NCBI GenBank assembly: GCA_964016885.1
Contig: OZ024746.1
Span: 5,456,001 to 5,520,000, forward strand
From: Eledone cirrhosa
Taxonomy: Eukaryota
Direction of reading: 5' to 3'
Length of the DNA: 64,000 nucleotides
Shown here piece by piece: positions 6,595-55,756 of this stretch (position 1 is its first letter; each line of letters starts with the position of its first letter). The notes below the pieces were generated by a model that was not told where the DNA came from, did not search any database, and was given only the letters and a program-made list of their open reading frames with translations. A program made the position numbers and the translations under genes.

Positions 6595-6945
6595 ATAAAT
6601 GTAATCTGAGTTTTTCGAATATTAATAATAACATTCGATTCGTTTGCAATTATGCAAACAAGCCCCAATTTTATAGCCATGTCAGTAGAATGAACCGTTC
6701 ATTCTTGCTCTTGTGTTGGCATACGAACAGATGAACTGATGAAGGGTGTTACCCAGAAACATTAGTGTCTGCAGTTCTGTTCGTATGCCAACACAAGAGC
6801 AAGAATGAAGTGTTCATTCTACTGACATGGCTATAAAATTGGGGCTTGTTTGCATAATTGCAAACTAATCGAATGTTATTATTAATATTCGAAAAAGTCA
6901 GATTACATTTATTGTATTCAGCCATGTAGAGCGAAATTTTCTTTT
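6595..6945. mobile_element. Fold-back element with about 137-bp arms and a hammerhead in the spacer
   Basis: 6595-6732 is the near-perfect reverse complement of 6776-6912; flanked by (TA)n. Confidence 0.85.
6732..6774 (+). ncRNA. Hammerhead ribozyme core with truncated or weak stem I
   Basis: CTGATGA-a-GGGT-gtt-ACCC-a-GAAA-CATTAGTG-TC^tgca; stem III is near-palindromic (ACATTAGTGT). Confidence 0.55.
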
Positions 6946-7112
6946 ATATATATATATGTATATATATAGTTCGTCCGACGGTGTCCAACGTTCATTAGGT
7001 GTTTCGACCCTCAACCGGAACTCCTGGTGGGTCAGCGATGTCAGCCAAATTACTGCCCATCATCGCCTCATACATTCCACACACACACACACACACACAT
7101 ATATATATATAT

Positions 7113-7164
7113 AGAAGTGGTAAGACAACAGTTAGTTCCCCATACCGGGATATTACCTTCCAGT
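7113..7164. mobile_element. Rearranged fragment of PLE family W
   Basis: gaagtggtaagacaacagttagttccccataccg approximates the reverse complement of 30053-30086; the following ggatattaccttccagt is the sense strand of 30125-30141. Confidence 0.6.
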
Positions 7165-7503
7165 ATATATATATATATATATATATATATATATATATAT
7201 ATATATATATATATATATATATATATATATATATATATATATATACTTATATAAAAACTACCCAAGTCTGTGTAACAACTGTCGATTATTTAAAATAAAA
7301 CCCTAGAAGATCGTATATTAGCAGTACTATGGAAGAATGTAGCAGGCGGTATGGAGAATCGAACTCAGTATAGTTTCCTCTCTTCGATAGGAGTATTTTA
7401 CCCGATTCACTGAACTGTTATTTTAGAAATCGACTGGTCTTATAATTATTTCTGCACTTGGAATTCCTGCATTTTCTAAAAAGAATATATATATACATAT
7501 ACA

Positions 7504-7667
7504 CAGTGAAATTCCGTTATAACGAAATTCTCGGGGTATAAAAAATTCGTTGTAATGACAAATTCTTTATAACGAGATCGATCTAACACATCGAGATGGG
7601 TATTGAAAAAAAAATTCGTTATACTGAAAAATTTATAATGGTATTCGGTATAACGGAATTTTACCTG
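7504..7667. mobile_element. pogo/Tigger-type MITE
   Basis: TIRs CAGTGAAATTCCGTTATAACGAA / TTCGGTATAACGGAATTTTACCTG in a TA context. Confidence 0.75.
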
Positions 7668-8680
7668 TATATATATATATATATATATATATATATACAC
7701 ATCTGTATACAATGTGTACATATGTATATTAATATATATATATACATATATACATGGATACGTAACGTATGTATGTATTGATATATATATACGTTACATA
7801 TCCATGCTGACGGCGCTATCCTATCTTTAAGTCTCCAGATGTACTTTAAATGAACTTTTCATATATTATTTATAATCATTTACCTTGGGACGATTTCCTT
7901 GCAAATGTTTCTGAAGTCAATTGAATCTTAACATAATGGGTAATAACTCCCTCCCTCGGGCCACGGATTGTCCTGATATTTGCGACTGCAAGGTCCCCCT
8001 ACGATGTCCAATCCCGGGCAAACTGTTTTTGTAGAAGACCAGCAGTTACCAATACATACCAGTTTCTCCTTTCCAAGCCAGTGGTATTGCCGAAGGGAGA
8101 GTCAAAGGTTGATATCTATCTATCTATCTATCTATCTATCTATCTATGTATGTATGTATAAGCGTATACATACACACATACATGATTATATATTATATAT
8201 ATATATATATATTATTCAAAATGTTAACAAATGTTAACAACGAACCATACTAATATTTGATTATATATATATATCTATCTATCTATATATATATATATAT
8301 ATACATGTATATGTGTGTATGTGTGTGTTCATGTACGTCTTTGTGTTTCTATGCTTAGTAAAGACATAGAACAGTGATTGACAAACTCGAGAAAAACGGA
8401 AAACGAAGAAACTACAATGAATTACATTAAAGTAATACATTTTCTTCTGAGATGAACCTTCCACCATTGTAACTCTGATTTACAAGTGTTTCACAACCCA
8501 ACAAGTAAAATTTGAATGTCATTAATTAGTGTACATAATAAAGAATGTTTTTGTCCTTATATAAATATAAGTTGGTTTGTTGTCACATTTCATTCCAATG
8601 TGGATCAGCAAAATGTGAGAATCTGAGTCAGTCGCAGTTTTTTCAGGTTAGTTAGATTAAATTTCATCATATTATATACT

Positions 8681-8868
8681 TAGTGGATTGGCAGTATCGA
8701 TAGAGAGTCGGACAGCATGCTTTGAAGCATAGAGTTACGTCCCTTTATGATCTTTGTTCAAATCCCGCCGAGGTTAACTTTGCCTTTCATCCTTACGGGG
8801 TCGATAAAATAAAGTACCGGTAATGTACTGAGTATTTGCTGGCCTTGTGCCAAACGTAGAAACAATTA
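8681..8868 (+). mobile_element. tRNA-derived SINE, family B (about 185 bp)
   Basis: Box-B-like gttcaaatccc; central gcctttcatccttacggggtcgataaaataaagtacc; tail gccttgtgcc..tagaaacaatt; more than 10 copies in the window. Confidence 0.85.
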
Positions 8869-54056: not shown

Positions 54057-54122
54057 TATTTTGTCTGAGGAAGGCATAACATATTGTTAATATGATATCC
54101 CTGAAATATATATAATGAAATA
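54057..54122 (+). ncRNA. Minimal type-I hammerhead ribozyme, family Y
   Basis: TATTTTGT-CTGAGGA-aggcata..tatccct-GAAA-TATATA-TA^ATGAAATA (8-bp stem I with two G.U pairs). Confidence 0.75.
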
Positions 54123-54457
54123 AATATGGTTTTATAAATATAGTTTCCATTTATTTAATATCGTATATATATATATATATATATATATATATATATATAT
54201 ATATATATATATATATACATACATACATACATACATATATATATATATATATATGTATGTATGTATATATATATATATATATATATATATATATATATAT
54301 ATATATATATATATATATATATATATATATATATATATATATATATACATACATACATACATATATATATATATATATATATATATATATATATATATAT
54401 ATATATTTGTGTATAGTGGTAGCTATGGTGATTAAAATTTGCTCCGCACATAACACC

Positions 54458-54548
54458 CGTGTCTGAAAGAACCCGCAGAAATAGAATCAGCCAGATCCAT
54501 ACAAGGACCACGACTCGAGCTACATGCCGGCGAAACATTTGTAACACG
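54458..54548 (+). ncRNA. Hammerhead ribozyme with long stem II insert, family U
   Basis: CGTGT-CTGAAAGA-(about 61 nt)-GAAA-CATTTG-TA^ACACG; one extra A in the core. Confidence 0.65.
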
Positions 54549-55422
54549 AAATAAACTAAGTCCAGATGCATCACTGATTTTTCGTTTTCTTGATAATATA
54601 TATATATATATGGGGGGGGGGCTATTATTTCGGTCAATAATGATAATTCCGCTTCCTAACAAGACATATGACCAGTTATAGAGTGAAGTAAATCATGTAA
54701 ATTAAATACCTTTTACTTCTTATTTTATAGGTTTATCTACCATCTATATTGAATTTATTTTATTAAATTATCATAATTAAGTACATTCACATGTATATTG
54801 ACAGTTCACACGTGCTCACGCGCACACACACACACACACACACACACACACACACACACACATATATATATATGTATGAATTTCTATATTGAATAATATC
54901 GACGGGATAACGACTGAAAATATATCAAAAGCATATATAATGAATATATTTTATTACCTTCTTCTTCTTCTTCTTCTTCTTCTTCTTCTCCACGTCCCTC
55001 TTAGCAATCGAGAAGTCAAACTATGTATAGCAAAGTCTAAAAAAAAAAAAAAAAAAAAATTTGACAATTTTATAATCGTGGGGTGGGGACGATTATTCAA
55101 GACCTGAGAGTACGTGAATTATTAACGGACGTAACCATGAAAACTCAATACTGAAATAGTGTTTAAATATTCATTTATTATGACTTGTTCCTCTGTAGTC
55201 TCACCTGCGTACTTACCAGACAAGACTGGTGTTACTGTCAGTGCGCAGGTGAGACTTTAGCATGACAAAAGCTAACCAATAGCCATAATAAAGGTATATA
55301 TATATATATATATATATATATATATATATATATATATATATATATGTGTGTGTGTGTATATATATGTATATATATTATTCGAAATATTAACAAATGAAAA
55401 ATATTCGCATAATCAAAATATA

Positions 55423-55489
55423 TACTTTATTATATATATTGCAGAGGTACTGTGTTGTTTTTTTCAATACGTCCTCATCAGACAAAATA
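55423..55489 (-). ncRNA. Hammerhead ribozyme, family Z (GAAA changed to GCAA, probably inactive)
   Basis: TATTTTGT-CTGATGA-ggacgtattg..cagtacctct-GCAA-TATATA-TA^ATAAAGTA; homologous to 40055-40121. Confidence 0.6.
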
Positions 55490-55577
55490 TATGATTTGAT
55501 ATATGACATACCGCTACGGTCTTGATTATTCAATTCCAGTATATATATATATATATATATGTATATATTTAGTTATA

Positions 55578-55756
55578 TAATAAACAACATAAGGCAATTA
55601 TTCCATTTACCAGTGGTTTCTTAAAAGCAAAAAATGTTGCTTTCAATCATCAGAATGAAAAAATCCTGGATTTTTTCATTCTGATGATTGAAAGCAACAC
55701 TTTTTGCTTTTAAGAAACCACTGGTAAATGGAATAATTGCCTTATGTTGTTTATTA
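55578..55756. mobile_element. Near-perfect palindrome (about 89-bp arms, 1-nt spacer)
   Basis: Centre aatcc-t-ggatt; each arm has CTGATGA-tt-GAAA-GCAA..TTGC-TT. Confidence 0.9.

What the first reader, a model, noticed from the sequence alone, without database searches (positions are those of the whole stretch)
6595..55756. Inversion points of unrelated fold-back families cluster at the ribozyme
Seen: at 6595-6912 the ribozyme core sits in the spacer. At 29732-29857 and 46836-46968 the apex is just 5' of GAAA. At 39639-39810 the strand switches 3 nt 5' of CTGATGA and restarts in the stem II loop. At 55578-55756 the apex is about 14 nt 5' of CTGATGA. All of these points lie upstream of the predicted cleavage site. 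Inference: the template RNA was uncleaved at that ribozyme, and the folded hammerhead acts as a general RT stall or template-switch signal that produces ultra-short palindromic insertions.
Basis: partly seen in the sequence, partly recalled or inferred. Interest (0 to 1): 0.7.

Follow-up and report, generated by a model that had tools for sequence, protein, structure and literature searches.

The report
Penelope hairpin stubs stop family-specifically
These short mirror-image insertions are real, cut-down ends of Penelope-type jumping genes, and their turning points pile up at one family-specific spot that likely marks where each element's RNA begins and lies in the self-cutting ribozyme in only some families, so the ribozyme is likely not a general stop-and-turn signal.

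Summary
All five palindromes are real head-to-head stubs of Penelope-like elements (PLEs) in (TA)n. The coordinates hold for four. At 29732 the quoted GAAA is not the ribozyme's: that apex lies about 90 nt downstream of the cut site. I mapped 205 head-to-head junctions of nine families. The longer arm ends in the ribozyme in 27 of 28 copies of the 46836 family, but in only 2/15, 3/31, 7/24 and 1/18 of the other four. Ends pile against a family-specific wall at -79, -51, -9, -6 or +43 from CUGAnGA. Non-inverted copies share the wall, which has TATA/Inr-like spacing in three families. It likely marks the RNA 5' end; a cap-G test was inconclusive. 188 of 205 pairs have one tailed and one tail-less arm, the tail-less arm is often the longer, and 14 joins share no sequence. 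That fits two primed cDNAs joined, not fold-back. An uncleaved template is supported. The architecture is known for PLEs, and this scan reported similar readings before on other DNA.

The parts
6595..6731 (-). Family A tail-less arm (5' end at +40, 7 nt past the predicted cut)
6729..6942 (+). Family A longer arm (5' end at -7) with ribozyme and tail (about 6910-6942)
6736..6769 (+). Family A type I hammerhead core: CTGATGA 6736-6742, GAAA 6756-6759, predicted cut after 6769
   Evidence: activity not tested
29672..29791 (-). Family B tailed arm (5' end at +133); holds no ribozyme
29791..29859 (+). Family B tail-less arm (5' end at +126); its GAAA at 29799-29802 is not the ribozyme core
39632..39735 (-). 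Family C tail-less longer arm (5' end at -4) with hammerhead core (CTGATGA 39731-39725, GAAA 39698-39695)
39734..39907 (+). Family C shorter arm starting at the helix II loop (+17) and carrying the roughly 95-nt tail that the longer arm lacks
46777..46897 (-). Family D tailed arm (5' end at +11)
46899..46968 (+). Family D tail-less, diverged arm (5' end at about +4)
55570..55669 (-). Family E tail-less arm (5' end at -16) with a full hammerhead copy
55665..55827 (+). Family E tailed arm (5' end at -16): CTGATGA 55681-55687, GAAA 55714-55717, predicted cut after 55726, tail from about 55762
622..988 (.).
1830..1944 (.). Family D head-to-head join of a tail-only arm and a tail-less arm with no shared segment
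15252..15460 (.). Family F palindrome (ends +37/+39)
20637..20822 (.). Family F palindrome (ends +54/+44)
45423..46005 (.). Family G palindrome with tail; ends at -117/-93, far upstream of its CTGATGA
56431..56628 (.). Family F palindrome (ends +43/+61)
57299..57524 (.). Family F palindrome (both ends +43) with a reiterated spacer
63503..63723 (.). Family F palindrome (both ends +44) with a reiterated spacer

Best explanation
The palindromes are head-to-head 5'-truncated ends of Penelope-like retroelements, likely made when both cut ends of a (TA)n target each prime a DNA copy of one uncleaved RNA at its two internal start sites, and the two copies are then joined at their 3' ends, which pile up at a family-specific wall that likely is the RNA's 5' end. 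Shown: two fixed 3' ends, one per arm; family-specific walls shared with non-inverted copies; read-through of the cut site; same-subfamily arms. Inferred: priming on both strands, one RNA template, displacement of one cDNA by the other to give the duplicated segment, run-off at a transcription start in the upstream pseudo-LTR, and joining by a template jump or by end-joining with 0-5 nt of microhomology. The apex seems to sit at the ribozyme where the wall lies at or inside it (D, I, F) and where the 3' start sites are only 60-100 nt from the core. In family A, which shows no wall, extended helix I sometimes supplies the pairing.
For: Tails: 188 of 205 pairs have one full-tail and one tail-less arm, 9 have a partial tail, 7 none and 1 both. 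Among one-tail pairs the tail-less arm is longer in 77, the tailed arm in 48, and they are equal in 52. 20 pairs were flagged as tail-only partner with no shared segment; 14 are clear on inspection. Arms match in subfamily in 33 of 33 scored F pairs, and within-copy identity exceeds between-copy identity in B, C, E, F and I (p<=1e-4; A p=0.09, D p=0.05). Share of copies ending at the wall versus in the next 16 nt upstream: D 29/32 vs 1/3, F 75/94 vs 7/19, I 27/34 vs 1/7, C 13/21 vs 1/8. A TATA-like word lies 29-32 nt before an Inr-like A at the wall in D, F and I; both together occur at 0.14% of 118,846 sampled A positions. The CACTATCC-like word at the C wall recurs in diverged subfamilies. 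342 of 406 outer ends lie within 16 nt of TATATA. B joins an RT plus GIY-YIG frame; F lies 1.0-1.2 kb behind a frame with RT and endonuclease motifs in two loci. In vitro precedent: both strands cut and extended, two internal start sites define the tail, and ribozyme cleavage is not needed (PMC11167929). Penelope's promoter and start lie in the pseudo-LTR (PMC2377424).
Against: Wall positions and the TATA/Inr patterns were chosen after seeing the data, so their p-values are optimistic. The walls in E (13/34 vs 3/21, p=0.053) and B (10/38 vs 3/28, p=0.1) are weak, and C, E and B have no TATA-like word at that spacing. The cap-G signal was strong against a loose null (22/38 vs 95/459, p=2e-6) but not against a matched null (22/41 vs 16/42, p=0.11; untemplated only 13/24 vs 16/36, p=0.32). 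The walls of D and I coincide with the 5' edge of helix I, and that of C with the 5' edge of another predicted helix, so a structure-based stop is not excluded. Tails were almost never followed by an ORF in my sample, so the 5' pseudo-LTR context is not seen. Very short spacers in E and F (median arm difference 0 and 3.5 nt; no permutation of 5000 as small) also fit snap-back. Same-subfamily arms also fit fold-back or conversion.
Confidence: 0.6

Rival explanations
1. Twin priming as above, but the wall is a structure-set stop: synthesis ends just after the 5' strand of a long helix has been copied (ribozyme helix I in D and I, another hairpin in C), because the new cDNA refolds and releases the enzyme.
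For: The D and I walls match the 5' edge of helix I. A predicted 12-bp helix starts at the C wall. Family A joins use extended helix I (overlaps of 11-22 nt in 4 of 15 pairs; loci L061 and L062).
Against: The F wall is inside loop II with no helix starting there in the predicted fold. Family A, with one of the strongest predicted helix I duplexes, has 2 of 15 longer arms ending in the ribozyme. D arms ending at -9 are not joined to the helix I partner strand. TATA/Inr-like spacing is not predicted by this model.
Confidence: 0.2
2. A single cDNA reaches the RNA end or a stall, snaps back on itself and is copied into a hairpin (fold-back), as described for R2 snap-back junctions.
For: Near-perfect hairpins with short spacers and correlated arm ends in E, F, C and B; same-subfamily arms; snap-back after full-length cDNA synthesis is reported for R2 (PMC11371274 passages).
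Against: It cannot put a tail on the shorter arm only (77 pairs), cannot give joins with no duplicated segment (14 clear cases), and does not explain why the second arm stops at the exact internal start site in 188 of 205 pairs. It may account for a minority.
Confidence: 0.1
3. One reading: the folded, uncleaved hammerhead is a general reverse transcriptase stall or template-switch signal that sets the inversion point in all families.
For: Longer arms end in the ribozyme in D 27/28, F 63/64 and I 15/17; 121 of 205 overall. The template is mostly uncleaved.
Against: A 2/15, B 3/31, C 7/24, E 1/18; in less biased subsets A 1/14, B 0/15, C 6/22, E 1/10, D 9/9. No common position relative to the core: the best shared 16-nt window holds 0.79 of D and 0.76 of I but 0.12 or less of F, C, E and B. 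A stall at a fold would be expected at its 3' side, yet only 1 of 205 longer arms ends between GAAA+4 and the cut. Non-inverted copies stop at the same walls. Naiad PLEs lack canonical hammerheads yet form the same inverted structures (PMC8557442 passages).
Confidence: 0.06
4. The walls are 3' splice sites and the template is a spliced RNA with a very short first exon.
For: An AG lies at the wall in D, F and I, and pyrimidine tracts precede the C and E walls. In D. virilis Penelope the intron end maps to the 5' end of helix I (PMC4209133).
Against: Copies usually keep the AG, and no shared exon-1 sequence precedes it; the upstream letters are heterogeneous.
Confidence: 0.04

Closest known systems
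Inverted 5'-truncated pseudo-LTR with one-sided tail of endonuclease-bearing Penelope-like elements (PMC8557442 passages and section 11; PMC3846280 passages)
   Same: Head-to-head inverted 5'-truncated copy, optional tail at one end only, palindromic junction, (TA)n targeting, hammerhead motif near the 3' end.
   Different: Here the stubs are mostly ORF-less (100-600 nt) and very abundant (77 pairs of nine families in 1.6 Mb), with tails of 33-110 nt. The passages I read do not map junction positions; PMC3846280 favours self-priming on an antisense template.
PAc Poseidon element of Anolis carolinensis in vitro (PMC11167929, parts 1-2 of 4 read)
   Same: Two internal start sites defining the tail, both target strands cut and extended, unprocessed RNA as the main substrate.
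   Different: The parts read do not model inverted products or their junctions. There the tail lies in the ORF start; here tails were nearly always followed by (TA)n.
Hydra clade and Neptune-type PLEs (PMC8557442)
   Same: F-linked frame: CxCX5C linker, only one cysteine between the GIY and YIG halves, and CxxC and CxH motifs, as described for Hydra. B-linked frame: CX4CxxC linker and two cysteines between the halves, Neptune-like.
   Different: No tree was built. A, C, D, E, G, I and K were not linked to an ORF; A and G look like tandem non-coding units.
L1 twin priming and R2 snap-back (PMC11702581 and PMC11371274, passages)
   Same: A second cDNA primed from the other target end and joined by short microhomology; inversion at the 5' junction.
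   Different: L1 twin priming gives mostly non-overlapping inverted pieces from random internal sites; here both start sites are fixed and the arms usually duplicate each other.
Minimal type I hammerheads of PLE pseudo-LTRs and animal non-LTR retrozymes (PMC4209133 parts 1-2 of 4; 10.64898/2026.07.22.740005 part 1 of 5)
   Same: CUGAnGA/GAAA core, long helix II, short or palindromic helix III; close opposite-strand pairs were noted in Schistosoma; the U3-A8 variant is seen in one F subfamily.
   Different: F has a roughly 40-nt loop II with the wall inside it, and its second subfamily has a C3-A8 mismatch; no activity was tested.

Membership tests
Endonuclease-bearing Penelope-like elements | RT followed by a C-terminal GIY-YIG endonuclease in the full element | tested here: met
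F: motifs by eye only, no Pfam hit.
Endonuclease-bearing Penelope-like elements | ORF linkage for families A, C, D and E | tested here: inconclusive
   No ORF found upstream of the longest copies in my sample; tblastn with the B protein found none near them. The stretches were short and the search would miss distant clades.
Endonuclease-bearing Penelope-like elements | Inverted 5'-truncated copy, head-to-head, tail at one end only | tested here: met
   188 of 205 pairs; all five window palindromes.
Endonuclease-bearing Penelope-like elements | Hammerhead motif near the 3' end | tested here: met
   Core with helices I-III laid out for A-E and F; helix II weak in G, I and K. Rfam gave no hammerhead at gathering threshold.
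Endonuclease-bearing Penelope-like elements | Insertion into (TA)n | tested here: met
   342 of 406 outer ends within 16 nt of TATATA.
Endonuclease-bearing Penelope-like elements | RT phylogeny within a PLE clade | not tested
   No reference PLE proteins were at hand; no tree built.
Hydra clade | CxCX5C linker and no CCHH in the endonuclease | tested here: met
   F-linked frame in L155, against section 11 of PMC8557442.
Hydra clade | Same motifs in the B-linked frame | tested here: not met
   B has CX4CxxC and two cysteines between the GIY and YIG halves, that is Neptune-like.
Active hammerhead ribozyme | Self-cleavage at the NUH site | not testable with these tools
   Structure only; no pile-up of ends at the cut (12 of 749).
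Fold-back (snap-back) product | Second arm wholly templated by the first | tested here: not met
   Tail only on the shorter arm in 77 pairs; 14 clear joins with no shared segment.
Run-off at a capped RNA 5' end | Extra G before +1 | tested here: inconclusive
   p=2e-6 against a loose null, p=0.11 against a matched null.
Run-off at a capped RNA 5' end | RNA molecules starting at the wall | not testable with these tools
   No RNA holder listed.

The most novel reading that the evidence does not exclude
One uncleaved PLE RNA is copied twice from its two internal start sites in the upstream pseudo-LTR, the tail-primed cDNA displaces the other, and both run off the capped RNA start. The roughly 100,000 or more stubs in this genome are then a natural map of each family's transcription start and both reverse-transcription starts. 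In some families the ribozyme begins at the cap itself (D, I) or is split by the start site (F), so that only the downstream copy could cut.
Probability: 0.4. Interest if true: 0.55.

Novelty: new member of a known kind. Interest (0 to 1): 0.3.

Why it matters
How PLEs, the sister group of telomerase, make their inverted ends is still open in the papers read. The junction counts give genomic support for the two-strand, two-start-site mechanism seen in vitro, and they argue against the ribozyme being a dedicated switch. If the walls are RNA starts, promoters of many families can be read straight from the genome, and the ribozyme's position relative to the cap becomes testable. The architecture itself is known, and the finding's own claim does not hold as a general rule.

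Tried and rejected
Rfam found only a tRNA-like match at gathering threshold. The E-value scan's top 150 of 336 rows showed no hammerhead family and were mostly microsatellite-driven miRNA hits. A 3'-end query for family E found nothing; the tool skips very common words, so this shows nothing. The first E sample and the first B and D samples are biased because the query reached the apex region; tail-selected or background copies were used as a check. No RNA holder was listed for the F stretch, so no reads were laid. Cap-G: promising, not significant with a matched null. Solo-versus-inverted KS tests (A 0.05, B 0.42, C 0.79, D 0.07, E 0.12, F 0.28, I 0.006, K 0.14) are rough. Many C 'solo' ends at -39 to -8 are alignment stops in diverged subfamilies, and some solos are missed inversions, including the window's D palindrome. 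Looking past the tail for an ORF start found none. The F-linked frame had no Pfam or useful PDB match and no BLASTP similarity to the B RT piece. Splice-acceptor and helix-II-pairing readings were considered and kept only as minor. Literature searches for a ribozyme stall or switch in PLEs, or for twin priming in PLEs, listed no paper whose title or abstract start proposes either; closed journals and supplements were not seen.
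Full report
Setting. The window is AT-rich animal-type DNA from a 3.0-Gb assembly, with about 10.5 kb of microsatellite. A masked self-comparison finds all five palindromes and others. Positions are relative to the C of CUGAnGA.

Data. I used 160 stretches of 10 kb: 140 evenly spaced over large contigs and 20 beside the window. To these I added 120 search loci for E, A, B and D, 40 stretches picked by tail sequence for C, D and E (14, 13 and 13 top rows), and the window. 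Arms were aligned to family references and paired. After dropping two duplicate A rows, 205 head-to-head pairs remained; 77 are in the 1.6-Mb background. A tenth family, H, without a recognised core was left out of these counts. The automatic pairing missed the window's D palindrome, which I read by hand.

Observation. B is misread. Its longer copies carry CTGAAGA, a 6-bp helix II and GAAA some 100-130 nt upstream of the window's apex. The arms end at +126/+133, about 90 nt past the predicted cut at +34.

Clustering test. Longer arms ending between -15 and GAAA+4: A 2/15, B 3/31, C 7/24, D 27/28, E 1/18, F 63/64, G 0/2, I 15/17, K 3/6. Only D, F and I beat a uniform null. Less biased subsets agree: A 1/14, B 0/15, C 6/22, D 9/9, E 1/10. 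Some C arms extend further 5' than mapped because subfamilies diverge, which would lower C further. 64 of 205 longer arms end upstream of -15 and 19 end downstream of the cut. In D the tail-less 3' end is at +71 and the wall at -9, so almost any detectable D palindrome must turn in the ribozyme.

What the ends follow. Ends pile against a wall and become rare just beyond it: D -9, I -6, F +43 (in loop II), C -79, E about -51, B about -79. The share ending at the wall versus in the next 16 nt is D 29/32 vs 1/3, F 75/94 vs 7/19, I 27/34 vs 1/7, C 13/21 vs 1/8, E 13/34 vs 3/21 and B 10/38 vs 3/28 (walls fitted to the data). Non-inverted copies stop at the same places, and others run far past into 3' UTR and ORF. 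In D, F and I a TATA-like word lies 29-32 nt before an Inr-like A at the wall, a pairing seen at 0.14% of sampled A positions (patterns set after inspection). An extra G before the wall would mark a copied cap (mentioned in PMC11702581, passage). It was 22/38 vs 95/459 against a loose null but 22/41 vs 16/42, p=0.11, against a matched one: inconclusive. The D, I and C walls also coincide with the 5' edge of a predicted helix, so a structural stop remains possible. I took up the RNA-start reading after seeing it in earlier scan notes and then tested it here.

How the two arms arise. 188 of 205 pairs have one arm starting at the tail end and one at the internal site. The tail-less arm is longer in 77, the tailed arm in 48, and they are equal in 52. 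Twenty pairs were flagged as a tail-only arm joined to a tail-less arm; 14 are clear and 6 are mis-parsed or ambiguous. A fold-back cannot make these. Arms share subfamily in 33 of 33 scored F pairs, and F shows 57 distinct junction types among 64 pairs, so junctions are made afresh from one template or one source. Overlaps are mostly 0-5 nt or short inserts. Long overlaps from ribozyme helices are a minority, clearest for extended helix I in A. This matches the in vitro PAc results of both strands extended, two start sites and no need for cleavage (PMC11167929, parts 1-2 of 4). No pile-up at cut+1 was seen (12 of 749 ends).

Identity. B continues upstream into an RT plus GIY-YIG frame with a Neptune-type linker. 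F lies behind a frame with Hydra-type motifs (no Pfam hit). A is a 436-nt tandem unit. A, C, D and E are filed as PLE-like by architecture only.

Literature seen. PMC8557442: passages and section 11. PMC3846280, PMC2377424, PMC11702581 and PMC11371274: passages. PMC4209133: parts 1-2 of 4. 10.64898/2026.07.22.740005: part 1 of 5. Inverted 5'-truncated copies, one-sided tails, junction palindromes and pseudo-LTR promoters are all described there. Searches listed no paper whose title or abstract start maps PLE junctions to the ribozyme or to the RNA start; closed journals and all supplements were unseen and may bear on this. Inr, TATA-variant, octamer and YY1 labels are recalled, not from a call, except the Inr-like TCACT and TATA noted in PMC3846280.

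Verdict. These are real features of a known kind of element. The general ribozyme-stall claim is not supported, the uncleaved template is supported, and twin priming with run-off at the RNA start is the most likely mechanism (0.6). Interest 0.3.

Noticed in passing
window 15252-15460, 20637-20822, 56431-56628, 57299-57524, 63503-63723: Family F, the most abundant palindrome family, has a hammerhead-like fold with a 6-bp helix III and a roughly 40-nt loop II; one subfamily has the U3-A8 core variant and the other a C3-A8 mismatch. Its stubs start inside loop II and so lack the CUGA box.
   Followed up: partly
tails of C, D, E, F, I and K (for example window 46777-46836 and 39811-39907): The tails of otherwise unrelated families share a TGAGTRC / ACTC-like motif that could form a small hairpin.
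   Followed up: no
family B, about 60 nt upstream of CTGAAGA (for example L096): An AAGATGGCG word lies about 19 nt downstream of the weak B wall; it resembles the YY1 site that positions the LINE-1 start (recalled, not checked).
   Followed up: partly
L282, L187, L218, L010 upstream of the C wall: An ATTTGCAT octamer-like word is kept about 50-65 nt upstream of the wall across diverged C subfamilies.
   Followed up: no
L058, L069, L074, L078, L079; L156, L213, L274: Families A (436-nt unit) and G occur as head-to-tail tandem units with the tail running into the next unit, like non-coding retrozyme arrays.
   Followed up: partly
window 57439-57476 and 63639-63664; L311, L166: Spacers made of short reiterated copies of the arm end, suggesting repeated slipping or jumping at the junction.
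   Followed up: no
window 46719-46798: Tandem duplication of the D tail end together with flanking (TA)n.
   Followed up: no
window 30005-30150 and 49007-49077: Non-inverted family K copies with a compact type I hammerhead and palindromic helix III.
   Followed up: partly
window 56086-56290 and 52652-52997: Two more inverted repeats: family H with no hammerhead core found, and one with a long microsatellite between its arms.
   Followed up: partly
window 61590-61659: Degenerate tRNA-like match (Rfam 35.5 bits), perhaps a SINE head.
   Followed up: no
window 20931-24929: Several 97-98% identical 470-680 nt direct repeats, a recent local duplication or tandem element.
   Followed up: no
window 8683, 25535, 32281, 33946, 36739, 47413, 50447, 52234, 60190: A dispersed repeat of about 190 nt with at least nine copies in the window, unrelated to the palindrome families.
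   Followed up: no
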